DNA of 64,000 nucleotides from an uncultured Myxococcales bacterium (GTDB taxonomy: Bacteria > Myxococcota_A > Polyangia > Fen-1088): assembly GCA_964571275.1 (NCBI GenBank), contig CAZNCQ010000011.1:1-64000 (forward strand), in the 5' to 3' direction. The stretch's first letter is position 1, and every line of letters starts with the position of its first letter. This document shows, in pieces, positions 3,330-28,919 of this stretch. A program made the translations under genes and the position numbers. The notes under the pieces are model-generated. The model was not told where the DNA came from. It saw nothing but the letters and a program-made list of their open reading frames with translations, and did no database searches.

Positions 3330-3731
3330 TCACGGCGCGACCAGCGGCAGGCAAGCACGCAGCGGCGCGCAGGCGTCGGCGGTCGCGAGAGCGCACAGGT
3401 CCGCGAAGCAGTCGAGGACATCGCCGACGACGAGGTTCGGACAGGCCGCGCCGATCTTCTGCACCGCCGTCACGCAGGCGGATTGATTGGCGTCGGCGCC
3501 GGGCGTGCTGCCGTCGGGACAGCTCAGCTGCGCACCGTAGCCGCCCGCGAGGCCGTTGAACTCGTCGCAGAAGCGCCGCTGCTCGGGCGGTGAAAGACCG
3601 GCGAGCGGGCGCGCGCGATCGGGCGGAGCGCCGGTGTCGGCGGTGTCGCAGCTGGCGGCGGCGGTGTCCGCGAGCGCTACGGCCAGTAGCAGCACGATCC
3701 GGAGCCGCATGCGATCGATGGTCCTCGTCAT
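3330..3731 (-). CDS. small secreted cysteine-rich protein (133 aa)
   Basis: N-terminal signal peptide (LRIVLLLAVALADTAAASC), 10 Cys, tightly linked to the LMF-like gene. Confidence 0.5.
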   Translation of the reverse strand: MTRTIDRMRLRIVLLLAVALADTAAASCDTADTGAPPDRARPLAGLSPPEQRRFCDEFNGLAGGYGAQLSCPDGSTPGADANQSACVTAVQKIGAACPNLVVGDVLDCFADLCALATADACAPLRACLPLVAP

Positions 3732-3791
3732 GAATCGCTCGAGTCAGAGAAACACGACAGTACCAGAGCGTGCCGTGGTAAATCCTCCGGC

Positions 3792-3888
3792 GGAAGTGCG
3801 TCCGGCGCTGGTGTCCGGCTCGGTCTTCAAAACCGATGGGGCGCCGCGAAAGCGTGCGCTCGGCGGGTTCGATTCCCGTGCGCTTCCG
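3792..3888 (+). tRNA. selC: candidate tRNA-Sec (selC-like), anticodon UCA, 97 nt, CCA not encoded
   Basis: Hand-folded cloverleaf: acceptor GGAAGUGCG/UGCGCUUCC (9 bp with two G-U pairs, or 8/5 fold); anticodon stem UCGGU/ACCGA with loop CUUCAAA (U33, UCA, A37), identical to the E. coli selC loop; 25-nt variable arm with GAAA-capped hairpin; T arm CGGG-UUCGAUU-CCCG; 5' GGAAG as in selC genes. D arm is only CCGG/CCGG with a 9-nt loop, which is atypical for tRNA-Sec. Confidence 0.5.
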
Positions 3889-4587
3889 CTGGGCTACCTA
3901 GTCCCCGAGAGGCAGACGACCTCCGCCCGAGCAGCAGAGTGTCCAAAGTCCTGACCGCCCTCCGCCCCATACCCGCGATCTCATCTCGCGTCCCAAATCA
4001 GAAGGCTCCCGGAACTGCGACCTGCCCCGCGAAATACTCGCCGTAAGCGCCTCGCCCTGCAAAAGCCGTGGGGGAAAGGCCTCCAGGTAGTAGCGTGCGA
4101 TAGCGCGCCCGGAACGTCGCGCTTCGCGAGTTCCAGGTCGACGCGTCCTCTCCGAGAGCCCACACCGAACAGCACGTCGCCACCATGGCCCAGCTGCACC
4201 GAGACAACCGTTACGACCGCAGGGCCGACGGCGTCGAGCGCGTGACAGGCGTCGCGCCTGAGTCGATCGAGACGTTCGTGGCCGCCCGCAGGCACTTCTA
4301 CCTGGGCTGAGCCCCCGGACTCCCGTCATCAGCCGGAAGTTCAGGTGCGCGCACGCCGTCTGCGTGAGAAGCGGTAGCCTCGTGAAGCCGACGTCGACCT
4401 TCTTATACGCCACAGCGTACCGCGGCGTATAAAAGCCTGACAGGACCACGGCGAGGCTTCCTCCCGCCGCTCGAAGACCGCTCGCCAAGCGGGCTCGCCT
4501 CGGCCGCCGGTGCCTCCCCCCACGACGCGCACTAGGGCTTACCTCCCGAGCTTCAAGGTCTCGCGCGATGTGCCGTTGTGTCGACCA

Positions 4588-5841
4588 ATGATATCTGCGC
4601 CTCTTCATCCAAGCGAAGCGTCGCGTCTCGAGAGCCTTCGCAGGTACGAGCTCCTGGACTCCGAGCTGGACGCTCGCTTTCAGCTCCTGGCCGAGCAGGC
4701 AACCGCGGTCTGCGGCGTCCCGGTTGGTCTCATCAGCTTGGTCGACGAGCATCGCCAGTGGTTCAAGGCGCGGGTGGGGATCGACGTCATGGAGACTCCG
4801 CGCGAGCTGGCCTTCTGCGCGCACGCGATCCTTCAAGAAGGGGTGTTCGAGGTGCCCGACGCGCGCGTCGACCCCCGGTTCCATGACAATCCGCTCGTCG
4901 CCGGCCCGAACGGGCTCGTGTTCTACGCGGGAATGCCGGTTCACGGCAGCGATGGGCTGCCGCTCGGGACGGTCTGCGCCGTCGACGCCGTGCCCCACGT
5001 GCTCGACGAAGGTCAGCGCGAGGCGCTGCGGATGATCGCCCGGCAGGTCGAGGTGCTCATCGAGGCGCGACAGCGGGCTCTCGTCGCGCTCGCTGCGCCG
5101 CCAACATCGACCGAGCGCGAGCCAGAGCCCGCGCAGCCGGAGGCCGGCGAATCGAGCGGGCAAGGCAGTGACCAGGCCGCCGGCGCCGCCGAGGCGATCG
5201 ACGTCATTCGCCGCGCGCCCGCGTGGTCACGCTGTCGCGTGACGGTCGCCCAGGCGCTCACCGAATTCTTTCAGGAGCCGTTGCGCCCGCGCGCGGAGTG
5301 GTCGACTGACAACGGCATGCGAATCGCCACCATGGTGCAGCTCGACACTCTCCACCAGGTGGCCCTGACGCTCGACCTGAGCGTCGAGCCGGCATTCCTT
5401 CGATCGTTCGCGCGCCAGCTCTTTGGAGGCTCGCCCGACGAGCGGGCCGAGAGGGCCGTCTTGCTCGAGTCGGCCAACATCGTCATGGGGGCCGTGAAGG
5501 CGAGCTTCGAGGCCACGGGATTTCGTCCGACGATGGGCCTTCCGCACGAGCGCAGCGCCGGGGAGGTCAGCACGGAGCTGTCCCACGCCGAAGCCGCTCA
5601 ATTTCAGCTGTTCGACGTCGCCGAGAGCCTGGTCGCGATCACCGCAGGCCTTCGCCAGTACGCGAACCGGGTGCTTCCGATCTCTGAATTGACGGAGGGG
5701 ATGGTCCTCGCGTCGGACGTGCGTGACGCCAACGGTGAGCTGCTGGCCAGCCGAGGGACGCGGCTCACCGACCACACCATCGACCGGATCGCCGCGGCGG
5801 CCCCGCATGGCCGAATCGCCGTGGGTGGTCATTCCCTGTAG
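4588..5841 (+). CDS. GAF-domain signalling protein with uncharacterised C-terminal domains
   Basis: GAF signature (LESLRRYELLDSELDARFQ ... GVPVGLISLVDEHRQWFKARVG ... VFYAGMPV ... GTVCAVD); start chosen at MISAPLHP (4588) rather than the upstream in-frame ATG. Confidence 0.6.
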   Translation: MISAPLHPSEASRLESLRRYELLDSELDARFQLLAEQATAVCGVPVGLISLVDEHRQWFKARVGIDVMETPRELAFCAHAILQEGVFEVPDARVDPRFHDNPLVAGPNGLVFYAGMPVHGSDGLPLGTVCAVDAVPHVLDEGQREALRMIARQVEVLIEARQRALVALAAPPTSTEREPEPAQPEAGESSGQGSDQAAGAAEAIDVIRRAPAWSRCRVTVAQALTEFFQEPLRPRAEWSTDNGMRIATMVQLDTLHQVALTLDLSVEPAFLRSFARQLFGGSPDERAERAVLLESANIVMGAVKASFEATGFRPTMGLPHERSAGEVSTELSHAEAAQFQLFDVAESLVAITAGLRQYANRVLPISELTEGMVLASDVRDANGELLASRGTRLTDHTIDRIAAAAPHGRIAVGGHSL

Positions 5842-5869
5842 CGCCCGCGAACAGTCCAGCTCGAGCTCG

Positions 5870-6274
5870 TCATTCCTTCCGTGATTCGGACGCTCGCGCG
5901 GCCGCTTCGGCCAGAACCTCTCGATCGATCTCTTCGCGCACACTCGTGAGGACGCACTCGAGGGTGACGCCGCGGCGCTTGGTCTCACCCTTTGCCCAAT
6001 GCAACAGGCGCCACAGGGTGAACAAGCCCATCCCATCCGAGCCGACAGCCAGAGTCGTCCCACACCGACAATTTGCCAGCGACAGCGTCCCCGCCGGCCT
6101 CTTCGGCCGCCAATCGCCCATCTGCGCATCCAGGGAAGCCACATCACCAACGTGCGTGGTCAGGCGCAGATATTCGATGAGCGACTCGAACCGCTGGCCA
6201 CACGCTCCGCAGACCTTGGGAAACTGCCGCTCGACGTGCTGCCGGGTGAGGCGAATGGCGTCGGCGCTGGTCAC
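5870..6274 (-). CDS. hypothetical protein with CxxC...CxC motif (possible zinc ribbon)
   Basis: 134-aa ORF with good codon usage; VCGACG and CRCG cysteine pairs. Confidence 0.4.
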   Translation of the reverse strand: MTSADAIRLTRQHVERQFPKVCGACGQRFESLIEYLRLTTHVGDVASLDAQMGDWRPKRPAGTLSLANCRCGTTLAVGSDGMGLFTLWRLLHWAKGETKRRGVTLECVLTSVREEIDREVLAEAAARASESRKE

Positions 6275-6346
6275 GCGATCAAGTCTACGTCAACGAAAGG
6301 CCCTGGGCGGGCATGCGCATGACCTGGTAGAAGCTCTTGCGGGTCA

Positions 6347-6697
6347 ATGGCCATTCCTGTCGACAAGCCCTTCGGCATCCCCAATATCCTGACGAGCTCC
6401 GAGAAGGCAAAGCGCAAGCAGGAAAACGAAGCGTCGCGTGACATCGGGCACTTCCACGACTACGTCGCGGGGAACCTGGTCTGGCGCCGGCAGTGGGTCG
6501 ACCATCGTGACCGCGAGGTCGAGCAGGCAGAGCAGGAGTCGCGACGCTACACCCTCTTGTTGATGCAGATCCGACAGCTTCACCCCGACTGGATCAGCGA
6601 GAACGTTCGAAGGGAAGCGCTGCGCCTGCTCGGGATCGAGAGGAGCAACCGCGAGCTGCGCCTCAGCTACGTACCGAAGTCGATCTCAGCGAAGTGA
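6347..6697 (+). CDS. hypothetical protein
   Basis: 116-aa ORF divergent from the previous gene; charged, no recognisable motif. Confidence 0.35.
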   Translation: MAIPVDKPFGIPNILTSSEKAKRKQENEASRDIGHFHDYVAGNLVWRRQWVDHRDREVEQAEQESRRYTLLLMQIRQLHPDWISENVRREALRLLGIERSNRELRLSYVPKSISAK

Positions 6698-15313: not shown

Positions 15314-17527
15314 ATGAGTCTGATCGGCCCTGTGACGGTGAGCCCCATTGGCGGGCATGACATGTACCTGCTCTCGATGAGCGGCGACGAGGAGCTGGGC
15401 AGGCTCTTCGAGTACAACCTGGAGCTCCTGAGCCCCGACCCGACGATCTCGCTCGCCGACGTGCTGGCCCAGAACGTCACGGTGACGCTCGAGCTGTCGG
15501 GCGCCAGCTTCCGGTATTTCAACGGCTACGTCAGTCGATTCTCCTTCGCGGGGACGTCGGGCGACCAGTGCGTCTACAAGGCGACGCTGCGCCCCTGGCT
15601 CTGGTTCCTGACCCGGACCTCCGACTGCCGCATCTTCAACCAGCGCTCGACGCCCGACGTGGTCAAGCGCGTCTTCCGCCACTACAGCCAGGCGCTGTTC
15701 GACGGGCCGCTGCCCGGGCACGCGTCGCGCGACTTCGTCGTCCAGTACCGCGAGACCGACTTCAACTTCGTGAGCCGGCTCATGGAAGAGGAAGGGATCT
15801 ACTACTACTTCCGCCACGAGCTCGGGAAACACACGCTGGTGTTCGCCGACTCGATCGGGGCGCACGACAAGTACCCGGGCCTGAGCATTCCCTATATGCC
15901 GCCGACCGACAGCGGACGGCGCCAGGGCGATCACTTCGATTCGTGGCGCGTGTCGCAGGAGATCCAGCCCGCGGCGTACGTCATGAAAGAGTACGACTTC
16001 AAGCGGCCGCGCGCCGACCTGCGCGCGGTCGTGAACCCGCAGGCCAACAAGACTCGCCACCTGATGGGCGAGTACTTCGACTACCCGGGCGGCTATCCCG
16101 AGCGCACCGACGGCGAGACGTTGGGCGGCATCCACCTCGACGAGCTCGGCGTCCACTACGAGACCGTGGAGACGACGGGGACGACGCGCGCGCTCAGCGT
16201 CGGGCAGACGTTCCGCGTGACCGACGTGCCGCGCCCGGATCAGAACCGCGAATACCTGGTCATGCGCGCGCACTACGAGCTGCACAGCCACGACATCACC
16301 ACCGGGACGACCGACGACCAGGAGATCTTCCAGGGCGCGTTCACGTTGATGGATTCGGGCAAGCCGTTCCGTCCCGCGCGCCACACGCCGCGGCCGGTGG
16401 TGCAGGGGCCGCAGACCGCTGTCGTGGTCGGCGACAAGAAGACCCAGCCCGACTCGAGCGAGATCGTCACCGACGAGCACGCGCGCGTGCGCGTGCGCTT
16501 CTTCTGGGAGCGCCTCGGCGGCGAACGCACCGACGAGCCGGACGATGAGGAGAAGCGCAACGAGGACATGACGACCTGGGTCCGCGTGTCGCAGGTCTGG
16601 GCCGGCGCGCAGTGGGGCGCAATCCACATCCCGCGCATCGGACAGGAGGTGATCGTCGACTTCCTCGAAGGCGATCCGGATCGCCCGATCGTCACCGGCC
16701 GCGTCTACAACGGCGACAACATGCCGCCGTATGCGCTCCCGCAGAACAAGACCCAGAGCGGTATCAAGAGCCGCAGCACCACCGGCGGCGGGCCGAGCAA
16801 CTTCAACGAGATCCGTTTCGAGGACAAGAAGGGCGGCGAAGAGCTGCACGTCCAGGCGGAGCGCGATCACTCGACGCTGGTCAAGCGCAACCAGTCGCTG
16901 AGCGTCGGCGGCGACCGCAGCGTCAGTGTCAGCGGAAACGAGACGGTCAGCGTCAGCGGCACGCGTTCGACGACGATCACCAAGAAGGAGACCGAGACCT
17001 TCAACGACGCGCGCGTGATGACGGTGGCGCAGACGGACGAGGTCACGATCACCGGCCACGCCACCGGCACCTACAACGGCGGCCGCACCGAGACGGTCAA
17101 GAGCGGCGACAGCCTGGAAGTGATGGGCTCGAACAAGACCGTCACCGTGCACGGCGAATACAACACCACCGCCGACACGCAGTTCCAGGTCGAGCAGGGC
17201 CCGAACAGCATCATGGTCAAGGACTCGATCACCGTTCACTCGACGACCGAGGTCAAGGTCACCAACGACAAGTGCACGGTGCATCTCAACGGCGGCTTGC
17301 TGTGCATCGACGCTGCAGACGAGATCAAGCTGACCTGCGGCGGCTCGACGATCTCGCTAGCCAAGGACGGGACGATCACGATCACCGGCGGCAAGCAGGT
17401 GACCACGACCGGTGGCGGCTCGGGCGTCGACCTGGTGGCGGCGGGCGCGACGATGTCCGGTACCAAGGCCACGGTCTCGGGCACGAGCACGACCGAAGTC
17501 ACCGGGGGGATCGTCAAGATCAACTGA
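15314..17527 (+). CDS. vgrG: type VI secretion spike protein VgrG (TssI)
   Basis: gp27-like N-terminal region (FEYNLELLS...YFNGYVSRFSF...YKATLRPWLWFLTRTSDCRIFNQ...FNFVSRLMEEEGIYYYF...YFDYPGGY); gp5 OB-fold (VSQVWAGAQWGAIHIPRIGQEVIVDFLEGDPDRPIVTGRVYNGDNMPPY); C-terminal beta-helix octapeptide-like repeats; no extension domain. Confidence 0.9.
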   Translation: MSLIGPVTVSPIGGHDMYLLSMSGDEELGRLFEYNLELLSPDPTISLADVLAQNVTVTLELSGASFRYFNGYVSRFSFAGTSGDQCVYKATLRPWLWFLTRTSDCRIFNQRSTPDVVKRVFRHYSQALFDGPLPGHASRDFVVQYRETDFNFVSRLMEEEGIYYYFRHELGKHTLVFADSIGAHDKYPGLSIPYMPPTDSGRRQGDHFDSWRVSQEIQPAAYVMKEYDFKRPRADLRAVVNPQANKTRHLMGEYFDYPGGYPERTDGETLGGIHLDELGVHYETVETTGTTRALSVGQTFRVTDVPRPDQNREYLVMRAHYELHSHDITTGTTDDQEIFQGAFTLMDSGKPFRPARHTPRPVVQGPQTAVVVGDKKTQPDSSEIVTDEHARVRVRFFWERLGGERTDEPDDEEKRNEDMTTWVRVSQVWAGAQWGAIHIPRIGQEVIVDFLEGDPDRPIVTGRVYNGDNMPPYALPQNKTQSGIKSRSTTGGGPSNFNEIRFEDKKGGEELHVQAERDHSTLVKRNQSLSVGGDRSVSVSGNETVSVSGTRSTTITKKETETFNDARVMTVAQTDEVTITGHATGTYNGGRTETVKSGDSLEVMGSNKTVTVHGEYNTTADTQFQVEQGPNSIMVKDSITVHSTTEVKVTNDKCTVHLNGGLLCIDAADEIKLTCGGSTISLAKDGTITITGGKQVTTTGGGSGVDLVAAGATMSGTKATVSGTSTTEVTGGIVKIN

Positions 17528-17547
17528 TGGGCGTGTAGCGCGGGTCG

Positions 17548-18993
17548 ATGGAAGCCATTGCGGTCCCTCTGCGGCGTCTTCACGAGGAGGCGAGCTGGTT
17601 CGCGCGCGCGGCGGAGATCAAGCTCCTGCACGTCGCTGCCGACGCGACGTTGCGGGGCGCGGCGATCAAGCTCCTGATGGGGCAGGAGTTCCACGCGGAC
17701 AATCGCGCGCTCTATTTCCGCTTCGACGATGAGGTCACCGGCCCGATGCGCGGCTGGCCCGCGCGCGCGGCGCGCCTGCGCGAGCAGTTCGCGGACAAGG
17801 CCGCGTCGCTGAAGCCGGCGGCGATCCACCTGGCGGCCATTCGCGACGTCTCGTCCTCGCCGGCGGGCGCGGCGGCGCGCTCGCCCGCGGCGGAGTTCGC
17901 GGCGCAGCTCTACGAGGCGCGGCGCGCGCTGGCGGCGCCGCTGACGCAGATCGTGGCGCTGCTCGCGCCGACGCGGGTCGAGGACCCGAAGATATTCGCC
18001 GCCGAGATGACGTCGTTGATTCGCGCGCGCGAGCTCGCCGACGTGCGCTGGATCGTGGTCGAGACCGACGGCGATGCCATTGGCCCGCTCGCGCAGGACC
18101 TCGGACGCGCCGCGCTCTCGTGCGCGTGCGTGATCGACAGCGCGGCCCAGAGCGATGCCTTGGCGGCGCAGGGCGCGGCGGCGGTCTCGGATCCGGTGAT
18201 CGTGCGCGCGCCGCCCGGCAACTGGCGCGCGCCCGGCGCCATGCCCGACGTCGAGCCGCCGCCGCACGTGGGTGCCCCGCCGGTGGCGACCGACGAGGAG
18301 CTGCGCGCCGCCGGCCTGTCGCCGGTGTTCGTCAAAGGCGGCGGCGATGCGCTCAAGCGCCTGGTGCTGGGCGGGGCGCTGGCCCTGCGCAACGGAAAGA
18401 ACGCGGACGCGGTCACGCTGCAGGCGCGCGCGGCCGCGCTCTGTGATGAGATGCAGATGCCCACCGAGGAGGTGCTGAACCTGCACGTCCTCGCCGGGTA
18501 TCTGATCGCAGGCTCGCAAGGCGCGCGCGCGCGCGAGGTCTACGTCCAGGCCGGAACGCTCGCGCGAACCCACGGGCTCAAAGATCTGGAGGCGCAGACC
18601 GAGCTGGCGCTCGGCATGCTGGAGGCGGTCGATCGCGCGCCCGCCAAGGCCGCGGCGCACTACGCCGCCGCGGGACGCCTGGCCGAGGATGCGAAGATCG
18701 ACGTCCTGGCGATCGAGGCCTGGCGAATGGCCGGCCAGCTGGCGCTGGAGAGCCGCCTCGAGACCTCGGCGGTCGAATGCTGGAAACGCGCGCTGGATCT
18801 GGCCGACGAGCTCGACCCCAAGCTCGCGCAGTCCACGAGCGCCGCCGAAATCGCGCGGGCGCTGGCCGCGGTCTACCGCAAGCGCGGGCTCGTCGCGCCG
18901 GCGAGCGCGCTGGAAGAACGCAGCGCGGAGCTGGAGCAAGGCACGCCTCCCACAGAGGAGGTCCCGCCCAGAACCGCTGGAAACACTGGCTGA
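17548..18993 (+). CDS. unclassified protein between vgrG and the PAAR-Rhs gene (candidate T6SS adaptor/chaperone)
   Basis: 481-aa Ala/Leu-rich, predicted alpha-helical, no signal peptide; starts 21 nt after vgrG; its stop overlaps the Rhs start (TGATG); does not match DUF4123, DUF1795 or DUF2169 as I remember them. Confidence 0.5.
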   Translation: MEAIAVPLRRLHEEASWFARAAEIKLLHVAADATLRGAAIKLLMGQEFHADNRALYFRFDDEVTGPMRGWPARAARLREQFADKAASLKPAAIHLAAIRDVSSSPAGAAARSPAAEFAAQLYEARRALAAPLTQIVALLAPTRVEDPKIFAAEMTSLIRARELADVRWIVVETDGDAIGPLAQDLGRAALSCACVIDSAAQSDALAAQGAAAVSDPVIVRAPPGNWRAPGAMPDVEPPPHVGAPPVATDEELRAAGLSPVFVKGGGDALKRLVLGGALALRNGKNADAVTLQARAAALCDEMQMPTEEVLNLHVLAGYLIAGSQGARAREVYVQAGTLARTHGLKDLEAQTELALGMLEAVDRAPAKAAAHYAAAGRLAEDAKIDVLAIEAWRMAGQLALESRLETSAVECWKRALDLADELDPKLAQSTSAAEIARALAAVYRKRGLVAPASALEERSAELEQGTPPTEEVPPRTAGNTG

Positions 18994-21900
18994 TGCTCGC
19001 CAGCACGTTCATGGACCTGGTGCTCGGGGTGGACATCCACTTCGAAATGGTCCCGATGCCGGCACCGGTCCCGACGCCGATCCCGAACCCGTTCGTCGGC
19101 ATGGTCTTCGATCCGGGCGGTTTGCTCGTCGGTCAGGTGATGAGCCTGACGATGGCGCTGGCCACTGGCAAGCCGCCGCTGGGACCGGTGCTGATCAACT
19201 CGATGCCGGCCACCACCGTCGGTACGAACGCAATCAACTCGCTCGGCGTGCCACACATCCTGATCCCGCCCGGCACGGCCTGGGCGCCGATGCCCAAGCT
19301 GCCGAAGCCGTCGTTCAAGGGGCCTCCGCCCGCGCCCGGCGCGCCGGTCAAACCCGAGGGCGACGCGATCAGCGTCTTCGGTTCGCAGACCGTCAACCTG
19401 ATGGGCACCAGCGCCGTGCGCATGGGCGACAAGTCGATGAGCTGCGGCGAGCCCGTGCGCCTGCCGTCGTCGACGGTGCTGGCGATTCCCAAGGGCATGC
19501 CGGTGATGATCGGCGGACCGCCGGCGATCTCGATCATGGACGCGGTCGGCGCTCTCCTGCGATCGAAGTGGGTCGCCGGCTACCTGCACGACATCTTGAG
19601 CCGCTTCAAGCCCGGTCGCTTGCGGAGCCTGATCAGCAAGGCGATCTGCTTCGTCACCGGGCACCCCGTCGACGTCGCGACGGGACGCGTGCTCACCGAC
19701 CAGGTCGACTGGCAGCTGCCCGGACCGCTGCCGCTGACGTTCGAGCGCAGCTACTCGTCGGCGTGGGCCAACCGCAACGGTCCGCTCGGCCACGGCTGGT
19801 CGCACAGCCTGGATCAAGCGGTCTGGGCGGAGCGCGGCCGCGTCGTCTATCTCGACGGCGAGGGGCGCGAGCTCGAGTTCGACACGTTCGCTTTTCCCGA
19901 CCACGTGCTGCCGGCCGGGGAGAGCGTCTACGAACCGATCACCCGCCTCACGCTGCGGGCGCTCGGCCAGCGTCGCTACGAGATCCACACGCACGACGGC
20001 ACCGCCCACGCGTTCGCGCCGGTCGAGGGCGCGACCGGCGAGCGCCGCTCCTGGTCGCGGCTCCTGCGCACGACGGCGCGCGCTGGCGCCGCGATCGCGC
20101 TCGAATACGATCGGCGCGGCGACCTCGCCTGGGTGCGCGATTCGGCCGGGCGTCAGATCGGGTTCGAGCACGACGCCGCCGGCCGGCTGAGCGCGGTCAA
20201 GCTACCGCATCCGACGGACGCCGGCTGGCAGGTGCACACTCGGTACGCTTACGACGCGCACGGAGACCTGGTGCAGGTCACTGACCCGCTCGGTGGGACC
20301 TGGCGCTTCGCCTACAAGCAGCACTTGCTGGTACAGGAGACCAACCGCAACGGCCTGTCGTTCTATTTCGCCTACGACGGCTTCGGAGAAGACGCGTATT
20401 GCGTCCGCACCTGGGGCGACGGCGGCATCTATGACCACATCATCGACTACGACAAGGTCGGCAAGGTCACCTGCGTGAGCGACAGCCTTGGCCGCACGAC
20501 GACCTACCGCATGAACGCCGTCGGGTGTGTCGTGAAGGTGACCGACGCGCTCGGCGGAGCGACATCCTACGAGTACGACGAGCGCACGCTGCGCAAGATC
20601 AAGGAGACCAGCGCCACCGGCGGGGAGACGCAGTGGAAGTACGACGACCGCGGCAACACCATCGAGATGACCGACCCGGGCGGCGCGGCGATCGCGGTGG
20701 CGTTCGACGAGCGCAACCTACCCGTGCGCGCCGTCGACGCCGTCAAGGGCGAGTGGACGTGGGGCTATGGCGACGGCGGCCGCCTGATCGGGCGGATCGA
20801 TCCCCTGGGCCGGCGCGTTCAGTTTCGCTGGGATCATCAAACCAAGCGGCTCGCGGCGATCACCGATCCCGCCGGTCACGAGTCGGCGCTCGGCTACGAC
20901 GCCCACGGAAACCTGACGTCGCTGACGGCGCCCGACGGTGCAGTGAGCGGCTGGCAGTACGACAACCTCGGGCGCTGTGTCGCGGCGATCGACGCGAACG
21001 GAAGCACGGAGCGGCGCGAGCACGATGCGCTCGGCCGGGTCGTGCGCGTCATCGAGCCCGACGGCAACGTGCGCGAGCTCTCGTACGACGGCGAGGGGAA
21101 CCTGATTGTCGCGCGCGACCGGCAGCACGACGTGCGCTTCACCTACCGCGGAATGGGCCGCCTGGCGTCGCGCCGCGAGGGCGAGACCACCGTCGCTCTC
21201 GACTACGACACCGAGGAGCGCCTGGTTGCGATCGCGAACGAGCACGGTCACGTTTACCGCTTCGAGCTGGGCGCCACCGGCCAGGTCGACGTCGAGCGCG
21301 GGTTCGACGGCATCCGGCGCCAGTACGCGCGCGACAAGGCGGGACGGGTCACCAAGATCTACCGCCCCGACGGCAGCGAGACCGTCTACCGCTACGACGA
21401 CGCCGGTCACGTCGCCGCCATCCTGCACAGCACCGGCGCCAAGGAAACATACGCCCACCGACCGGACGGTCAGCTGATCCAAGCCACCAACGATGCAGCG
21501 ACGGTGAACCTGGAACGCGACCTGCTCGGGCGCGTGCTGCGAGAGACGGTCGGCGACGATTGGGTCGCCTCGGAATTCGACGCCACCGGGCGGCGCGCCG
21601 GCGTCCGCTCGTCGAAGGGACTCGAGCAACGCATCCAGCGCGACGCCACCGGCCAGGCCGTGCGCGTGACGGCGGCGGTCAAGCACCAGGGCGACGACGC
21701 CGGGGGCTCGTGGCACGACGCCTGGCAAGCGCGGATCGTGCGCGACGCGCTCGGCGCTGAGATCGAGCGCGATCTACCCGGCGGCGTACAAAGCCGCTGG
21801 CAAAGAGACAAGCTCGGCCGCCCGGTGCAACAACGGATCTCCAGCGCGGCCGGGTTCCTGCGCGCCGTTCAATACACCTGGGACGTCAACGACCGCCTGC

Positions 21901-23261
21901 GCATGATGGTCGACGCGACCCGCGGCCCGATCCGCTACGAGCACGACACCTTCGGCAACCTCTCGGCGGCCGTGTACGAAGACGGCCGCGTCGACCTGCG
22001 CATGCCCGACGCAGTCGGGAACCTGTTCCGCAGCGCGGACCGCGGCGACCGCAAGTACGGTCCCGCCGGCCAGCTTCTGGAGTCGCGCGAGCCCGACGGC
22101 CGCGTCGTCGCCTACGAATACGACACCGAGGGAAACCTCGCGAAGAAGATGGAGCGCCGTGACACGCGCGGCGACGCGCGCGTCTGGACCTATCACTGGA
22201 ACGCCAGCGGCACGCTCGCGCGGGTCGTCCGCCCCGACGGCGAGGCGGTCACGTTCACCTACGACGCGCTGGCGCGCCGTCTTTCGAAGTCATTCCGCGG
22301 GAAGACCACGCGCTGGATCTGGGATGGCGACGTGCCGCTCCACGAGTGGGTCGAGCGCTCGGCGCCGGTCCGGGATGTCGCGCCGGCTCCGCCGTCGGCC
22401 GCTTTCTTCGCCGACGAGCGCGCGGCACGCCGGCGCAAGGCCGAGCTGGCGGCGCGTCCGTCGGTTGGCCCTCCGGGTTGGGCCGCGTCGGCTGCAAACG
22501 AGCCCGGAACCCGCGAGCGTCCGGTCACCTGGCTCTTCGATCCCGAGAGCTTCGCACCGATGGCCAAGCTCATCGGCGATGACGAATACGCGATCGTCAC
22601 GGATCACCTCGGCACGCCGTCGGCGATGTACGACGCCGCAGGCGACGAGGTCTGGTCCGCAACCTTCGACGTCTATGGCGGCCTGCGCGAGGTCCAGGGC
22701 ACGCGCGGCGCCTGCCCCTTCCGCTGGCCCGGCCAATACGAAGACGAGGAGACCGGCCTCTACTACAACCGGTTCAGGTACTACGATCCGCAGAGCGGCG
22801 AGTACGTCGCCAGCGATCCGATCGGTCTGTCAGCTGGCCTTCGCCTGTTCGGATACGTCGTCGATCCGAACAGTTGGTCCGATCCGCTCGGTCTCGCCGC
22901 GGGCTGCGGCAAGGACATCGCGCTCGGGAAGGACATTCCCGGCAGCCACGGGCTCAAGGGCCTGGCCACGCAGACGGGCTCCTCGTGGTGGCGCAACTGG
23001 GCGCGCGACGGGATTACCCGGCGAACCGTGTCGAACCGGTTTGGCCGCGCGTTTCATCAGGCGGCGGACCGGGCCGAGCACATTCACTTTTCACTCGACG
23101 GCATTCCCGATGTCGGGGAGGCTGTTCGGCAAGGCGCGGCGGGGTTCACGCCTGGAAACTTCACCCACGCCGAGTTGAATCACATTGTCAACAACCCGGA
23201 CCTGCTCTCGAAGACAACGTTCTATCGTGACGGCGTGCCCCAGACCGGTTCAATATTCTGA
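18993..23261 (+). CDS. rhs: PAAR-like (DUF4150-type) N-terminal domain - Rhs/YD-repeat polymorphic toxin
   Basis: Start at MLASTFMDLVLGVDIHFEMVPMPAPVPTPIPNPF (PAAR-like); many YD repeats (YAYDAHGDLVQVTDPLGG, YDDRGNTIEMTDPGG, YDAHGNLTSL, YDGEGNLIV...); Rhs core end PFRWPGQYEDEETGLYYNRFRYYDPQSGEYVASDPIGL...SWSDPLGL (DPxGL autoproteolysis motif at 22881-22895), followed by a 121-aa C-terminal domain. Confidence 0.9.
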   Translation: MLASTFMDLVLGVDIHFEMVPMPAPVPTPIPNPFVGMVFDPGGLLVGQVMSLTMALATGKPPLGPVLINSMPATTVGTNAINSLGVPHILIPPGTAWAPMPKLPKPSFKGPPPAPGAPVKPEGDAISVFGSQTVNLMGTSAVRMGDKSMSCGEPVRLPSSTVLAIPKGMPVMIGGPPAISIMDAVGALLRSKWVAGYLHDILSRFKPGRLRSLISKAICFVTGHPVDVATGRVLTDQVDWQLPGPLPLTFERSYSSAWANRNGPLGHGWSHSLDQAVWAERGRVVYLDGEGRELEFDTFAFPDHVLPAGESVYEPITRLTLRALGQRRYEIHTHDGTAHAFAPVEGATGERRSWSRLLRTTARAGAAIALEYDRRGDLAWVRDSAGRQIGFEHDAAGRLSAVKLPHPTDAGWQVHTRYAYDAHGDLVQVTDPLGGTWRFAYKQHLLVQETNRNGLSFYFAYDGFGEDAYCVRTWGDGGIYDHIIDYDKVGKVTCVSDSLGRTTTYRMNAVGCVVKVTDALGGATSYEYDERTLRKIKETSATGGETQWKYDDRGNTIEMTDPGGAAIAVAFDERNLPVRAVDAVKGEWTWGYGDGGRLIGRIDPLGRRVQFRWDHQTKRLAAITDPAGHESALGYDAHGNLTSLTAPDGAVSGWQYDNLGRCVAAIDANGSTERREHDALGRVVRVIEPDGNVRELSYDGEGNLIVARDRQHDVRFTYRGMGRLASRREGETTVALDYDTEERLVAIANEHGHVYRFELGATGQVDVERGFDGIRRQYARDKAGRVTKIYRPDGSETVYRYDDAGHVAAILHSTGAKETYAHRPDGQLIQATNDAATVNLERDLLGRVLRETVGDDWVASEFDATGRRAGVRSSKGLEQRIQRDATGQAVRVTAAVKHQGDDAGGSWHDAWQARIVRDALGAEIERDLPGGVQSRWQRDKLGRPVQQRISSAAGFLRAVQYTWDVNDRLRMMVDATRGPIRYEHDTFGNLSAAVYEDGRVDLRMPDAVGNLFRSADRGDRKYGPAGQLLESREPDGRVVAYEYDTEGNLAKKMERRDTRGDARVWTYHWNASGTLARVVRPDGEAVTFTYDALARRLSKSFRGKTTRWIWDGDVPLHEWVERSAPVRDVAPAPPSAAFFADERAARRRKAELAARPSVGPPGWAASAANEPGTRERPVTWLFDPESFAPMAKLIGDDEYAIVTDHLGTPSAMYDAAGDEVWSATFDVYGGLREVQGTRGACPFRWPGQYEDEETGLYYNRFRYYDPQSGEYVASDPIGLSAGLRLFGYVVDPNSWSDPLGLAAGCGKDIALGKDIPGSHGLKGLATQTGSSWWRNWARDGITRRTVSNRFGRAFHQAADRAEHIHFSLDGIPDVGEAVRQGAAGFTPGNFTHAELNHIVNNPDLLSKTTFYRDGVPQTGSIF
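22896..23261 (+). other. C-terminal toxin domain of the Rhs protein (unassigned family)
   Basis: 121 aa after DPLGL: AAGCGKDIALGKDIPGSHGLKGLATQTGSSWWRNWARDGITRRTVSNRFGRAFHQAADRAEHIHFSLDGIPDVGEAVRQGAAGFTPGNFTHAELNHIVNNPDLLSKTTFYRDGVPQTGSIF; no motif I recognise. Confidence 0.6.
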
Positions 23262-23270
23262 GGAGTTGCT

Positions 23271-23627
23271 TTGTCGAACACGTCCCACGACCCATTCTTC
23301 GAACGGACGTTGAAGTCGGGCGCGACGTTCCTGGCGCGCTGGTCCGGCGCGGATGCACAGCTGTGGGAGCTGACGGCATCGCACCGGACCCTCAAGGTGC
23401 TGCTCACGCGCCCCGGATCGACGCAGAACCTGCGGCAAAACTTGCAGATCGGTTGCCTCGATCCGATCCGGATCGAGGCGCCGGTCCGATGGACGAACGC
23501 TTCGCTCTCGCTTCAAATCACGTCGTTACCAGGCGACGACACCGGTTTCGTGCTGAGTGACGCCAACGGAGCCGTCTCGATCCTCTGCGGCTCGATCGAG
23601 TTCGCGGAGAACGTCAAGGCTCCGTAG
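23271..23627 (+). CDS. putative cognate immunity protein for the Rhs C-terminal toxin (118 aa)
   Basis: Starts with TTG 10 nt after the rhs stop with GGAG 5 nt upstream; small cytoplasmic protein; position directly 3' of the polymorphic toxin gene is the basis. Confidence 0.5.
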   Translation: MSNTSHDPFFERTLKSGATFLARWSGADAQLWELTASHRTLKVLLTRPGSTQNLRQNLQIGCLDPIRIEAPVRWTNASLSLQITSLPGDDTGFVLSDANGAVSILCGSIEFAENVKAP

Positions 23628-23654: not shown

Positions 23655-25643
23655 TCAGCGCGGCACCTTCAGCCGGTGCGTGTGGCAGGGCTCCGATTCG
23701 TCGGCGTGGCCGGGATTCAAGCGGCGCCAGCGGTTGCGCAGCTCCTGGTCGGTTTCGACCGCGACCCGATGCGCGGCGTACTCGCCCTGCGCGACTTCGG
23801 CCTCGCCGGCGCGGCCGAGCTCGCCGAGCGCGAGCGCGCGCTGATAGGAACCGTCTTCGGACTCCGGATCGATCACCAGGATCGCGTCCGCGGCCGCCAG
23901 CGCGCCGGGCGCGTCGCCGTTCAGGCCGCGCACACGCGCCAGTAAACCGAGCCCGCCGCGATCGTCGGGTAGGCGCCGCGCGAGGCGTTCCGCGAACGAC
24001 AGCGCGGGCCCGAACCGGTAGGCGTCGGTGAGCGCGCGCGCCGCGAGCCAGAGCGGCGCCGGATGGTTGGGCGCCACCGCCAGCGCTCGTTGCGCGAGCG
24101 CCAGCACGTCGTCGGTGCGGCCCTGCCGGACCGCCAGCCGCGCCAGGCCGAGCAGCGGCTCGACGCGCGTCGGCCACGCGGCGCGCGCGGCCTCGAGCGG
24201 CGCGCGTGCTTCGTCGGCGTGGTCGGCGGTCGCGTCGGCCAGCGCCAGGCCCCAATCGAGCAGCACCGCCGGATCGCTCGGCAGCGGCGCACCCGCAACG
24301 ATGCGGTCGCCGGCGATCTCGACGACGGGCAGATCCAGGCAACGCCGGCGCGGACCGGCGGGGAGATCCGCGCAGGCGAGACGCGCGTAGGCCGGCGAGA
24401 ACTTGCGGTAGTTGAGCCGCGCCTCGACGCGCGCCGTCCCTTCTGGCACCTCGAAGCGCACCACCTGCGGATCCGACGGTGCCAGCGCGGCGTCGAACGC
24501 GACGCCGCGCATGTGCTGGGGATCCCGGCGCAAGAGCGGGCGGCCGTCGGCGTCGACGGGCTGCGCGCGCACGAGGTGCGTGTCGGCGTCGAGCGCGCCG
24601 TCGCGCCCGCGCGCGCCCGATCGGCCCATCACGCGTCCGCTGGCATCGAATGCGGTGACCTCGAGCCAGACTTCGTTCGAATCCATCGTGCCGCCGGGAA
24701 AACGGTGGCCGACGCCGCGCGCGCGCAGCAAGGCATCGATCCGCCGCGGCCCCGACCAGATCAGCGCCAGCGACGCGCGACCCCGCAGGTTGCGCGCGAC
24801 ACGATCCTCTTGCTCGCCGTCGCCGCGCAGGTGCGGGAGCGCGGTATTCGCACCCAGAAAGCGGTGCGACCGGATCATGCCGTTCTTCGCGGCCGCGTCA
24901 CCCTCGGTCGCTGGCTCGAGCGGCATGTGGCAATCCTGGCAGGTCTGGCTGGCGGCGGGGCGATACACCGATCCGGCGCCGTTGCCGGCGACCGCGCTCA
25001 CGTGCCAGGCGTCGTAGTCGTCCTGGCCGCGCAACCAGCGATCGGCCGTGACGTCGGCGCCGAGCCCCACCTTGTGGCAAGTCGCGCAGAAGATCGCCTG
25101 GTTCATGAGCGGCGGGCGGACGCGCGCGCCATGCACGCCGGCGGCGGTGGGCACCGGCCGCAGATCGACGAGGTATCGCCCGTTGCCCTCGCGATCGACG
25201 TGGGTCACCGAATGGCAGATCAGGCAGGTCACGCCCGCCTGCGCGGCCCGCGTGCCGCGGAAGAGGACGCCCGGCTGATCCATCGCGCCGCTCGCGACCA
25301 GCAGCGGCTCGTGGCAGTTGCCGCAGAAGCGCGACGCGACCGCGCCTTTTTCCTGGCGAAATTGATCGGTCGCCGCGCGGTAATAGGGATTGTTGAACGA
25401 CGAGAATCGATGCGCCGACGCCGACCACTGCTTGGCCACGTCGGCGTGGCACCCGACGCAATCGGCGACACCGACGGGCGCGCCGGCGTAGAAGCCGCGC
25501 CGCGCGACCTCGCGCGCGATCGCGGCGTCCTCGGGACCGTCGCTGCCCGCAATCAACGACAACGGCGCGCCGCCGTGGGCCTCGAAGCGCGGCAACGAAG
25601 CGTCGGCCCACGCCGCTGACGACGCCATCAACGAACAAACCAT
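23655..25643 (-). CDS. multiheme c-type cytochrome (5 CxxCH) with C-terminal TPR domain
   Basis: CVGCH, CGNCH, CLICH, CATCH, CQDCH heme-binding motifs; signal peptide at MVCSLMASSAAWA; TPR-like C-terminal third; start is approximate (could be up to 25859). Confidence 0.75.
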   Translation of the reverse strand: MVCSLMASSAAWADASLPRFEAHGGAPLSLIAGSDGPEDAAIAREVARRGFYAGAPVGVADCVGCHADVAKQWSASAHRFSSFNNPYYRAATDQFRQEKGAVASRFCGNCHEPLLVASGAMDQPGVLFRGTRAAQAGVTCLICHSVTHVDREGNGRYLVDLRPVPTAAGVHGARVRPPLMNQAIFCATCHKVGLGADVTADRWLRGQDDYDAWHVSAVAGNGAGSVYRPAASQTCQDCHMPLEPATEGDAAAKNGMIRSHRFLGANTALPHLRGDGEQEDRVARNLRGRASLALIWSGPRRIDALLRARGVGHRFPGGTMDSNEVWLEVTAFDASGRVMGRSGARGRDGALDADTHLVRAQPVDADGRPLLRRDPQHMRGVAFDAALAPSDPQVVRFEVPEGTARVEARLNYRKFSPAYARLACADLPAGPRRRCLDLPVVEIAGDRIVAGAPLPSDPAVLLDWGLALADATADHADEARAPLEAARAAWPTRVEPLLGLARLAVRQGRTDDVLALAQRALAVAPNHPAPLWLAARALTDAYRFGPALSFAERLARRLPDDRGGLGLLARVRGLNGDAPGALAAADAILVIDPESEDGSYQRALALGELGRAGEAEVAQGEYAAHRVAVETDQELRNRWRRLNPGHADESEPCHTHRLKVPR

Positions 25644-25666
25644 CGCGGCAACCAGGCTCGCCGGTT

Positions 25667-27196
25667 TCACGGCTTGCGCTCCCGCCGCGGCGGCGGCTGC
25701 CCCGGAAGCCCGAGCAGCGGCACCGGCGACCGCACGTCGCGTTTCAAGGACACCGTGCCGCGCGGAGCGGTGGCCAGCCCCTTGGCGGCCGTCGGCGGCG
25801 CCTTGCCGAACGGATTGTCGGGCGGGCCGCCCCAACGACCGTAGATCGGCTCCTTGCACGCCACCGGACGTTCCCAGTAGTGGCGGATGATGTAGCGCGC
25901 CTGGAAATTGTTGGTGCCGCCGTCGATGATCTGCGCGCCCGCGTCGTCGTTGGCGCCGTCCCAGCTGGCGCGGCCACCCATGACCGGTTTGGCCTCGCGG
26001 AAGATCAAGTCCTCGGACAGCGTCTCCGCGCTGTAGCGCGTGTGCAGCCGCGTGAGCACCCAGCCGGCTCCCATGCTGCCGAAGAACGGCATGCGCCGCG
26101 CAGGCGCGCCGGCCGCGGCGCCGGACTTACCGGCACCGCCCGTTGCCGGCGGCGGGACCGCGATGGCCGCACCCTCCAGCGCGTCCAGTCCCAGCGTGGC
26201 CAGGTCGGACGCCGTGAGCGGTGGCGTCGGACACGGGTCGCACGACGTGGTCTGCCACGCGTACTCGGTGACCACAGCCTTGCGTCCCATCTTCTCGATC
26301 GTGGCGTCGAAGAGCGTCGCATAGAACGCGGGGAAGCCCTGGCGAACGGCGTCGGCGACCTCGAGGTTCGTGGGCGTGAACACGTTCGGGTAGTTCGCGA
26401 CCTCGAATCGCGACGACGGGTGCAGCACGTACACGATCAGGTCCTGCTTGCCGGTGGCGTTGAGCAGCCCGAGACGCACCGGCAAGCGCAGCTCGTTGGC
26501 GTCGAAGGCGAAACGCAGCGGCGACAGGTGGACCACACCGGCCGCGTCGCGACTCACCTTCTTGACGTCGACCTTGGCGACGAAGAACTTCGATTTGTCG
26601 CGCACGTACGGCGCCAGCGCCGCCGCCGCGCCCGCGGGGATGTGGTACTTCTCGCGGTGCAGCCAGGTCTCGAGCCCCGACGACTCGGTCGCCGACAGGA
26701 TCACGATCTGGTATTCGCCGGCGACGAACTGCGCCTCGATCTTCACGCCCAGGCCGCCGGCGACGCCCACCTCCCCTCTCCGACTCATGCCCCTGCCGCC
26801 CATGGCGCTCATGGGCGCCATGGCGCGCATGGGCGGCGTGCAGGGATCCTGCTCCCAGTACTCGACCAGCCGCGGCGCCGACAGTGAATCGATGCGGTCG
26901 AACACGTCCGTGGGCAGCGTCTTCACGTCTTCCTTGTGCAGCACGACGGGAACCGGCACGACCATCGCGAAGTCCTCGGGCGGTCCCTTGTAGTCATTGG
27001 ACATCGTCATCACCGTGCGGTTGCCCTTGCGCATCAGCACGACCTGGGACGCGTCGTTGGTCAGCTTGGCGTCGCTGCCGGCGACGAAGAACCCGCAGAA
27101 CGCCAGCGCGCGCGGCGAACCCGCGATGACGCCGATCAACCCGAACAAACCAACCAACGCGAACGGCTGCGAACGACACCACCGAGATCGGATCAT
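25667..27196 (-). CDS. secreted conserved protein of unknown function (DUF2330-like as far as I can recall), paralog A
   Basis: GGAGGAGG RBS, signal peptide then FCGFFVAGSDAKLTNDASQVVLMRKGNRTVMTMSNDYKGPPEDFAMVVPVPVVLHKEDV...; about 75% identical over the core to the adjacent gene. Confidence 0.65.
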   Translation of the reverse strand: MIRSRWCRSQPFALVGLFGLIGVIAGSPRALAFCGFFVAGSDAKLTNDASQVVLMRKGNRTVMTMSNDYKGPPEDFAMVVPVPVVLHKEDVKTLPTDVFDRIDSLSAPRLVEYWEQDPCTPPMRAMAPMSAMGGRGMSRRGEVGVAGGLGVKIEAQFVAGEYQIVILSATESSGLETWLHREKYHIPAGAAAALAPYVRDKSKFFVAKVDVKKVSRDAAGVVHLSPLRFAFDANELRLPVRLGLLNATGKQDLIVYVLHPSSRFEVANYPNVFTPTNLEVADAVRQGFPAFYATLFDATIEKMGRKAVVTEYAWQTTSCDPCPTPPLTASDLATLGLDALEGAAIAVPPPATGGAGKSGAAAGAPARRMPFFGSMGAGWVLTRLHTRYSAETLSEDLIFREAKPVMGGRASWDGANDDAGAQIIDGGTNNFQARYIIRHYWERPVACKEPIYGRWGGPPDNPFGKAPPTAAKGLATAPRGTVSLKRDVRSPVPLLGLPGQPPPRRERKP

Positions 27197-27224
27197 GCGG
27201 ACCTCCTCCTGACGCTGGCGTGAG

Positions 27225-28727: not shown

Positions 28728-28919
28728 TCGGAAACAGGATCGGCATCGGACCATGGCAAGCCTCCTCGGTTTTGGGGTTCCCACGTCCGGCAAACGCAGC
28801 TCGGCCAAAAAAGATCTCGCGCGTCGCACAATAACGCCACCTGCGCGTGAACTCCACGCCGTCGCCGCCGGGCAGACCGCGATTTCAGTTTTGGCGCACC
28901 CGGCCGATGAACCGGGCCT

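What the first reader, a model, noticed from the sequence alone, without database searches (positions are those of the whole stretch)
3792..3888. tRNA-like gene with anticodon UCA (candidate selC / tRNA-Sec) not in the ORF track
Scanning the 850-bp gene-free stretch for GGTTCGATTCC revealed a complete cloverleaf. It has a 9-bp acceptor stem starting GGAAG, an anticodon stem-loop UCGGU-CUUCAAA-ACCGA (anticodon UCA, decoding UGA), a 25-nt variable arm and a canonical T arm. The anticodon loop and the 5' GGAAG match E. coli selC. The D arm (4 bp with a 9-nt loop) is unlike the 6/4 D arm of canonical tRNA-Sec. It is therefore either selC, a divergent variant, or an opal-suppressor-like tRNA.
Basis: seen in the sequence. 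Interest (0 to 1): 0.7.

Follow-up and report, generated by a model that had tools for sequence, protein, structure and literature searches.

The report
Ordinary bacterial selenocysteine tRNA gene (selC)
The flagged sequence is a normal, intact gene for the selenocysteine tRNA, which reads UGA as the 21st amino acid, in an uncultured high-GC soil bacterium; standard tools find it at once and its "odd" D arm is a common bacterial variant.

Summary
Window 3792-3888 (+) is a bona fide bacterial tRNA-Sec (selC) gene. ARAGORN calls tRNA-SeC with anticodon UCA. Rfam RF01852 matches end to end at 72.9 bits (gathering score 47, E 5e-13).

The fold is the bacterial 8/5 cloverleaf:
- 8-bp acceptor stem plus 5-bp T stem, 13 bp in all
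- anticodon loop CUUCAAA
- 26-nt variable arm
- discriminator G73
- the same C-G / G·U / C-G pairs at the acceptor/T junction as E. coli selC

It is a 6-bp stem with one bulged nucleotide and a UGGU tetraloop. That form occurs in 62 of 115 sampled bacterial tRNA-Sec genes.

A clade of 35 distinct relatives from soil metagenomes keeps the structure. 98.3% of cells are paired and 14 of 33 pairs show compensatory changes.

No selA, selB, selD or selenoprotein gene lies in the about 84 kb available. About four fifths of the selC loci I sampled also lack them nearby, so the genome-level check stays open.

Verdict: already known kind, low interest. One side observation: a position-fixed promoter-like box abuts the gene across the clade.

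The parts
3792..3888 (+). tRNA-Sec (selC) gene, 97 nt from G1 to discriminator G73. CCA is not encoded; the genome continues CTG.
   Evidence: ARAGORN tRNA-SeC. Rfam RF01852 at 72.9 bits, E 5e-13, full model. MFE cloverleaf at -49.7 kcal/mol.
3792..3799 (+). Acceptor stem 5' strand (GGAAGUGC). It pairs with 3880-3887 in 8 pairs, including U6·G91.
   Evidence: pair list. 8 of 8 pairs form. In the clade, pair 6-91 covaries as C-G 22, U-A 11 and U·G 2.
3802..3818 (+). D arm CCGG(C)GC-UGGU-GUCCGG: a 6-bp stem with bulged C15 and a 4-nt loop.
   Evidence: 62 of 115 sampled tRNA-Sec genes have this 17-nt form. Four of six D-stem pairs show compensatory changes in the clade.
3820..3836 (+). Anticodon arm UCGGU-CUUCAAA-ACCGA. 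The anticodon UCA is at 3827-3829.
   Evidence: The loop is identical to that of E. coli selC.
3837..3862 (+). Long variable arm of 26 nt: a 9-bp stem with one bulge and a GAAA loop.
   Evidence: family range 20-27 nt. Seven of nine pairs covary in the clade. The only SNP in a 99.7%-identical strain lies in its loop, GAAA to GAGA.
3863..3879 (+). T arm GCGGG-UUCGAUU-CCCGU: a 5-bp stem that starts with G·U and then C-G.
   Evidence: G72·U88 is invariant in 35 of 35 clade members. Pair 73-87 covaries as A-U 14, C-G 12 and U-A 9.
3880..3888 (+). Acceptor stem 3' strand (GCGCUUCC) plus discriminator G73 at 3888.
   Evidence: The discriminator is G in 114 of 115 sampled tRNA-Sec genes.
3776..3784 (+). 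Putative extended -10 promoter element TGG-TAAATC, at -16 to -8 from the mature 5' end. This is an inference.
   Evidence: Position-fixed box in 63 non-identical upstream regions of the clade. TA sits at -13/-12 in 43 of 63, against a median of 0 at other positions, with 1.2-1.4 bits of information. The strict sigma-70 consensus scan did not flag it.

Best explanation
This is the organism's selC gene. It encodes tRNA-Sec, the tRNA that inserts selenocysteine at selected in-frame UGA codons.

Shown here: the gene is intact, it has the bacterial tRNA-Sec architecture, and that architecture is held by compensatory substitutions in a clade of relatives.

Inferred from the established bacterial pathway (summarised in PMC13188914, PMC5330540 and PMC13449736):
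1. The transcript is probably made from a promoter directly upstream, and CCA is added after transcription.
2. SerRS charges it with serine, using G73 and the long variable arm.
3. SelA converts Ser to Sec with selenophosphate made by SelD, recognising the 6-bp D stem with its 4-nt loop.
4. SelB, not EF-Tu, delivers Sec-tRNA-Sec to UGA codons that are followed by a SECIS hairpin. The 13-bp acceptor/T branch and the C-G / G·U / C-G pairs at its junction keep it away from EF-Tu. Ordinary UGA stop codons, the majority in this window, are therefore not suppressed.
For: Tool calls:
- ARAGORN calls tRNA-SeC with anticodon tca.
- Rfam tRNA-Sec matches at 72.9 bits against a gathering score of 47, full length, E 5e-13.

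Fold:
- 8-bp acceptor stem and 5-bp T stem
- 6-bp D stem with one bulge and a UGGU loop
- CUUCAAA anticodon loop
- 26-nt variable arm
- discriminator G73

Place in the family, among 115 tRNA-Sec genes from many phyla:
- The discriminator is G in 114.
- The variable arm ranges from 20 to 27 nt.
- Length to the discriminator ranges from 90 to 98 nt; the window's gene is 97 nt.
- The window's three junction pairs (C8-G89, G72·U88, C73-G87) are the same as in E. coli selC.

D arm: 62 of 115 have the 17-nt form, and the inner pairs covary.

Clade of 35 distinct sequences from soil metagenomes:
- 98.3% of cells are paired, against 35-51% for slid controls.
- 14 of 33 pairs have changes on both sides.
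- 0 of 500 shuffles reach the observed values.

Population data: three strain-level contigs carry the identical tRNA. A fourth, 99.7% identical over 11.7 kb, has one SNP, in the variable-arm loop.

Stop codons: TGA ends 30 of 44 predicted genes, so a general suppressor would be harmful.

Promoter: a position-fixed -10-like box lies upstream across the clade.
Against: - No selA, selB or selD homologue and no convincing in-frame-TGA gene is in the window or in 10 kb on either side. The rest of the genome could not be reached. This is weak evidence: in the broad sample only 21-26 of about 120 selC loci have any one of these genes within the fetched block of 8 kb or less. None of the 67 clade loci does.
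- No expression data exist.
- The strict sigma-70 scan and the terminator scan found nothing.
- In the clade's commonest register the window has a C15·U23 mismatch. Six D-stem pairs form only if the bulge shifts by one position.
Confidence: 0.92

Rival explanations
1. Orphan or relic selC. The tRNA gene persists in a genome that has lost selA and selB, so it is idle, decaying or used for something else.
For: No Sec machinery or selenoprotein gene is in the about 84 kb available. None lies next to selC in any of the 67 clade loci.
Against: The gene is intact. Its clade shows strong compensatory covariation and invariant junction pairs, and a strain variant changed only a loop base. That is the pattern of a gene under selection. 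Absence of sel genes nearby is the norm in the broad sample.
Confidence: 0.05
2. A tRNA-Sec look-alike with another identity: an allo-tRNA, or a selC*-type tRNA-Cys with a UCA anticodon that reads UGA as Cys or Ser.
For: It has the UCA anticodon, a long variable arm and a long D stem. Those classes share these features, and they were first found as false positives in tRNA-Sec searches (PMC5389517).
Against: Allo-tRNAs have a 12-bp acceptor/T branch (8/4 or 9/3). selC* tRNA-Cys has U73, and A1:U72 in the forms linked to cysS*, with selB*/cysS* next door (PMC5389517). The window's gene has a 13-bp 8/5 branch, G73 and G1:C96. No selB-like gene lies nearby.
Confidence: 0.02
3. A chance cloverleaf or a tRNA-derived pseudogene with no function.
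For: No consensus promoter or terminator was found by the simple scans.
Against: The E-value is 5e-13. Every stem is intact. The gene is conserved with compensatory changes in 35 distinct relatives. A conserved upstream box sits at a fixed distance.
Confidence: 0.01

Closest known systems
E. coli selC (tRNA-Sec, b3658), the reference bacterial selenocysteine tRNA
   Same: - Starts GGAAG.
- 8-bp acceptor stem plus 5-bp T stem.
- GU linker after the acceptor stem.
- Identical CUUCAAA anticodon loop.
- G73 discriminator.
- Identical C-G / G·U / C-G pairs at the acceptor/T junction.
- Long variable arm.

   Different: - The D arm is 17 nt (6 bp plus one bulge) here, against 16 nt in E. coli.
- The variable arm is 26 nt, against 22.
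- CCA is not encoded.
- Sequence differs through most stems.
- In E. coli a perfect TATAAT lies about 33-38 nt upstream. Here a -10-like box lies at -13 to -8.
selC of a Kofleriaceae (Myxococcota) MAG (locus L075) and a clade of 62 soil-metagenome tRNA-Sec genes (L131-L197)
   Same: - Same 97-nt layout and the same 5' half pattern.
- Bulged 17-nt D arm.
- Invariant G72·U88.
- Stand-alone gene with no sel genes nearby.
- Two metagenome copies are identical to the window's gene.
- L139 shares the LMF1 neighbour at 86% identity.

   Different: - Most clade members encode CCA. The window's sub-clade has CT after the discriminator.
- The bulge sits at position 15 here and at 16 in most others.
allo-tRNAs and selC* tRNA-Cys (Mukai et al., Nucleic Acids Res 2017, PMC5389517)
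   Same: tRNA-Sec-like appearance: a long variable arm and a long D stem with a tetraloop. Some have a UCA anticodon.
   Different: They have a 12-bp acceptor/T branch (8/4 or 9/3). selC* has U73 and adjacent selB*/cysS*. The window's gene has 13 bp, G73 and no such neighbours.

Membership tests
Bacterial tRNA-Sec (selC; Rfam RF01852) | Covariance-model score at or above the curated gathering score | tested here: met
   72.9 bits against 47, model positions 1-91 of 91, E 5e-13. ARAGORN also calls tRNA-SeC.
Bacterial tRNA-Sec (selC; Rfam RF01852) | UCA anticodon in a 7-nt loop | tested here: met
   The loop is CUUCAAA and the anticodon lies at 3827-3829.
Bacterial tRNA-Sec (selC; Rfam RF01852) | 13-bp acceptor/T branch, 8/5 in bacteria (PMC5330540, PMC5389517) | tested here: met
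   8 of 8 acceptor pairs and 5 of 5 T-stem pairs form. In the clade these helices are 99.3% and 100% paired.
Bacterial tRNA-Sec (selC; Rfam RF01852) | 6-bp D stem with a 4-nt D loop (PMC5330540) | tested here: met
   Six pairs and a UGGU loop, with one bulged nucleotide. The bulged form occurs in 62 of 115 sampled genes, and its inner pairs covary. A D-stem bulge has also been reported in Clostridiales (PMC5330540).
Bacterial tRNA-Sec (selC; Rfam RF01852) | Long variable arm and G73 discriminator, the SerRS identity elements (PMC13449736) | tested here: met
   The variable arm is 26 nt, within the sample range of 20-27. The discriminator is G, as in 114 of 115.
Bacterial tRNA-Sec (selC; Rfam RF01852) | Acceptor/T junction pairs that exclude EF-Tu in E. 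coli (C7-G66, G49·U65, C50-G64). The role of these pairs is from my own knowledge of the E. coli work. | tested here: met
   The three pairs are the same as in E. coli selC. G·U is invariant in 35 of 35 clade members. Their function was not tested.
Bacterial tRNA-Sec (selC; Rfam RF01852) | selA, selB, selD and SECIS-bearing selenoprotein genes in the same genome | not testable with these tools
   None lies in the window or in 10 kb on each side. The rest of the genome is out of reach. In the broad sample each of these genes is also absent from about four fifths of the selC blocks.
Bacterial tRNA-Sec (selC; Rfam RF01852) | Expression, serylation and conversion to Sec-tRNA-Sec | not testable with these tools
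   The only indirect evidence is a conserved promoter-like box.
allo-tRNA (PMC5389517) | 12-bp acceptor/T branch in an 8/4 or 9/3 arrangement | tested here: not met
   The branch is 13 bp, as 8/5 or equivalently 9/4.
selC* tRNA-Cys (PMC5389517) | U73 discriminator. In the opal-decoding forms, also A1:U72 and neighbouring selB*/cysS*. | tested here: not met
   The gene has G73 and G1:C96. No SelB homologue is in the window or its flanks.

The most novel reading that the evidence does not exclude
In this clade of soil bacteria the selC promoter sits so close to the gene that transcription would start at or within 1-2 nt of the mature G1. The -10-like box is at -13 to -8, position -1 is always a pyrimidine and +1 is G. 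The 5' end, and hence the eighth acceptor pair, would then be set largely by transcription initiation, not by RNase P.

This would parallel eukaryotic tRNA-Sec, which from my own knowledge is transcribed without a 5' leader.

A weaker signal at the same positions appears in the phylum-wide selC sample.
Probability: 0.2. Interest if true: 0.4.

Novelty: already known. Interest (0 to 1): 0.1.

Why it matters
The gene marks this uncultured high-GC soil bacterium, probably a myxobacterium, as a likely user of selenocysteine. Some of its in-frame TGA codons elsewhere in the genome should therefore be read as Sec and not as stops, which matters for annotating that genome.

It adds nothing new about how tRNA-Sec works.

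The practical lesson for the scan is that tRNA genes are invisible to an ORF track. A hand-folded D arm can also look unusual when it is in fact the bulged 6-bp form found in 62 of the 115 genes parsed here.

Tried and rejected
- A simple sigma-70 promoter and intrinsic-terminator scan of 3500-4600 found nothing. The promoter-like box only showed up by comparing clade members.
- I searched for an att-like repeat of the tRNA 3' end in the window, allowing up to 3 mismatches, and for repeats in 3500-6500. Neither search found anything. No integrase lies nearby, so there is no sign of an island inserted at selC.
- A screen for in-frame TGA flanked by coding-like GC3 on both sides covered the window and both flanks. 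It returned only gene junctions (ABC/MacB, GST/DUF455) and antisense frames, with no CxxU or UxxC motif.
- tblastn with E. coli SelA, SelB and SelD found no hit in the window, its flanks or the 67 clade loci.
- A synteny search with the window's neighbouring proteins against 120 genome loci found nothing.
- The organism could not be named.
- A literature search gave nothing specific on the Sec trait in Myxococcota.
- The look-up of the GAF protein failed because the called start codon differs.
- A weak Rfam hit to ASdes at 4099-4174 (-), 17.8 bits against a gathering score of 40, E 0.58, was dismissed as chance.
- I ran no further search on hunting for this organism's SelA, SelB or SelD. No close query sequence was available, and the hits carry no organism label.

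Full report
**Observation.** The sequence at 3792-3888 (+) is a complete tRNA gene.
- ARAGORN finds two tRNAs in the 64-kb window. One is tRNA-SeC at 3792-3889 with anticodon tca.
- Rfam's tRNA-Sec model (RF01852) matches 3792-3887 over its whole length. The score is 72.9 bits against a gathering score of 47, E 5e-13. It is the only family to reach its gathering score in the window.
- A relaxed search of 3500-4700 added only a chance-level hit.

**Anatomy.** The minimum-free-energy fold of the 97-nt sequence, at -49.7 kcal/mol, gives the following:
- An 8-bp acceptor stem, 1-8 with 89-96, including one U6·G91 wobble.
- A GU linker.
- A D arm CCGG(C)GC-UGGU-GUCCGG, which is six pairs with C15 bulged and a 4-nt loop.
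- The anticodon arm UCGGU-CUUCAAA-ACCGA, with the anticodon at 3827-3829.
- A 26-nt variable arm with a 9-bp stem and a GAAA loop.
- A 5-bp T stem GCGGG/CCCGU that begins with G72·U88.
- Discriminator G at 3888.

The genome continues CTG, so CCA is not encoded. The 8/5 reading is the bacterial convention (PMC5330540).

**The D arm.** I tested this against other tRNA-Sec genes.
- I scanned one genome per species for this gene's anticodon-arm core (GGU-CUUCAAA-ACC) plus its T-arm core, leaving the D arm free.
- ARAGORN called tRNA-SeC in 114 of these loci.
- With the window's gene included, 62 of 115 have a 17-nt D arm and 52 have the 16-nt arm seen in E. coli.
- In the 17-nt class the loop is UGGU in 60 of 62. 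The innermost pair is C-G in 62 of 62. The next pair forms in 59 of 62 with five pair types.
- Six pairs can form with one 5'-strand bulge in 59 of 62. With the extra base placed on the 3' strand, six pairs form in only 15 of 62.

So the arm is the tRNA-Sec 6-bp stem with a 4-nt loop and a common one-base bulge. D-stem variation of this kind has been noted in Clostridiales (PMC5330540) and in mycobacteria (PMC13449736).

**Fit to the family.** I parsed all 115 sequences plus E. coli selC into their parts. L050 could not be parsed, so 115 rows remain.
- The discriminator is G in 114 of 115.
- The variable arm is 20-27 nt; the window's is 26.
- Length to the discriminator is 90-98 nt; the window's is 97.
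- CCA is encoded in 85.

The window's gene has all 8 acceptor pairs and all 5 T-stem pairs. Its three pairs at the acceptor/T junction (C-G, G·U, C-G) are the same as in E. coli selC. I read the E. coli sequence from the annotated K-12 genome. From my own knowledge of the E. coli work, these pairs block EF-Tu binding.

**Conservation.** I then scanned JGI metagenomes for the 5'-half pattern shared by the window and the closest named relative, a Kofleriaceae MAG (L075, 84.5% identical). The six 5'-strand positions 11-16 and the five 3'-strand positions 23-27 of the D stem were left free.
- The scan returned 67 loci with 63-77% GC. ARAGORN called tRNA-SeC in 62 of them.
- With the window's gene these make 39 distinct sequences, and two copies are identical to the window's.
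- I aligned the 35 of these that span 96 or 97 nt to the discriminator, the window's gene among them.
- On that alignment the 8/5 cloverleaf has 98.3% of cells paired, against 35-51% when partners are slid by 1-3 columns.
- 14 of 33 pairs have changes on both sides, and no shuffle out of 500 reaches the observed values.
- Caveat: columns 1-10, 17-22 and 28-48 were fixed by the search pattern. The informative helices are therefore the outer D stem (4 of 6 pairs compensatory), the variable arm (7 of 9), the T stem (2 of 5, with G72·U88 invariant) and acceptor pair 6-91 (C-G 22, U-A 11, U·G 2).

At population level, three contigs from other assemblies carry the identical tRNA. A fourth, 99.7% identical over 11.7 kb, differs only in the variable-arm loop.

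**Context.**
- The window is 69% GC.
- Pfam hits include LMF1-like, RCC1-repeat, GAF and FG-GAP/TSP3 proteins, VgrG and Rhs, sigma-54 activators, a cellulase, a pectate lyase and ABC transporters.
- Together with the Kofleriaceae-like tRNA, this suggests a myxobacterium.
- The same population recurs in a series of ENA metagenome assemblies, on contigs up to 219 kb.
- There is no selA, selB or selD homologue in the window or in 10 kb on either side. There is no convincing in-frame-TGA gene, no integrase, and no repeat of the tRNA 3' end.
- As a control, in the broad sample only 21 (selA), 26 (selB) and 24 (selD) of about 120 selC loci have the gene within the fetched block of 8 kb or less. None of the 67 clade loci does, though most of those are short. 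Absence nearby therefore says little.
- TGA ends 30 of the 44 predicted genes. UGA is the normal stop codon here, and a general suppressor would be costly.

**Rivals.**
- Allo-tRNAs have a 12-bp acceptor/T branch.
- selC* tRNA-Cys has U73, and in the opal-reading forms A1:U72 with selB*/cysS* alongside (PMC5389517).
- The window's gene fails each of these tests.
- An orphan selC cannot be excluded without the genome, but the covariation pattern argues for a gene in use.

**Mechanism.** What is shown is an intact, conserved gene with every sequence-level tRNA-Sec determinant. The rest is inferred from the established bacterial pathway (PMC13188914, PMC13449736):
1. SerRS charges the tRNA with serine.
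2. SelA converts Ser to Sec using selenophosphate made by SelD.
3. SelB delivers Sec-tRNA-Sec to UGA codons followed by a SECIS element.

**Side observation.** The upstream regions of clade members do not align otherwise, yet they share a box at a fixed distance from the gene.
- It reads T-15, G-14, T-13, A-12, A-11, then T-8 and C-7. TA sits at -13/-12 in 43 of 63, against a median of 0 at other positions.
- A weaker TTG lies near -36 to -33, which gives 17-nt spacing.
- Position -1 is always a pyrimidine.
- The window reads GTGGTAAATC at 3775-3784.
- This looks like a sigma-70-type promoter that would start transcription at about -1 or +1.
- A fainter signal at the same positions appears in the phylum-wide sample.
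- E. coli selC instead has a perfect TATAAT about 33-38 nt upstream.
- This is untested.

**Verdict.** This is a routine selC gene that standard tools detect. It is a known kind and of low interest.

Noticed in passing
window 3756-3791 (box at 3776-3784); loci L131-L197 and L075: A position-fixed promoter-like box (TG-TAAnnT at -15 to -8, with a weaker TTG near -35) lies directly upstream of selC across the clade. Position -1 is always a pyrimidine. This implies a very short 5' leader or none. The signal is weaker but visible in the phylum-wide selC sample and absent at that position in E. coli.
   Followed up: partly
window 3889-3891; loci L131-L197: Most members of the soil clade encode CCA after the discriminator. 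The window and its nearest relatives (L139, L141, L197) have CT instead, so they depend on the CCA-adding enzyme.
   Followed up: partly
L123 (ERZ27245399 k141_1165816), tRNA variable-arm loop: A strain 99.7% identical over 11.7 kb carries a single SNP in the tRNA. It changes the variable-arm tetraloop from GAAA to GAGA. All stems are unchanged.
   Followed up: yes
loci L002-L121: In 83 of the 115 tRNA-Sec genes parsed, at least one of the eight acceptor positions is unpaired; 80 have seven of eight pairs. In about three quarters of them the eighth position itself is not a standard pair (for example U/C, G/A or A/C). This fits the 7-bp acceptor with 6-bp T stem drawn for mycobacteria in PMC13449736. 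The window's gene has a clean 8/5 branch like E. coli.
   Followed up: partly
window 27850-27924 (-): A second tRNA gene, tRNA-Gly(CCC). The long ORF 27228-29411 (-) that overlaps it is probably spurious.
   Followed up: no
window 15314-23624 (+): A type VI secretion effector module: VgrG (15314-17524), an unknown 481-aa protein, a 1494-aa Rhs/YD-repeat protein (18777-23258) and a small downstream ORF (23271-23624) that could encode an immunity protein.
   Followed up: partly
window 4185-4310 (+): A 41-aa ORF in the gene-free stretch downstream of selC is called as a gene in the ENA assemblies. No family was assigned, and no upstream extension exists in that frame.
   Followed up: partly
L122 12947-15132 (left of the window): Genes with LarB-like (AIRC) and LarC-like (Ni_insertion) domains lie about 2-4 kb beyond the window's left edge. 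They suggest synthesis of the nickel-pincer cofactor.
   Followed up: no
window 23658-27526 (-): A multihaem cytochrome c/TPR protein (23658-25859) lies next to a DUF2330 protein (25670-27526).
   Followed up: no
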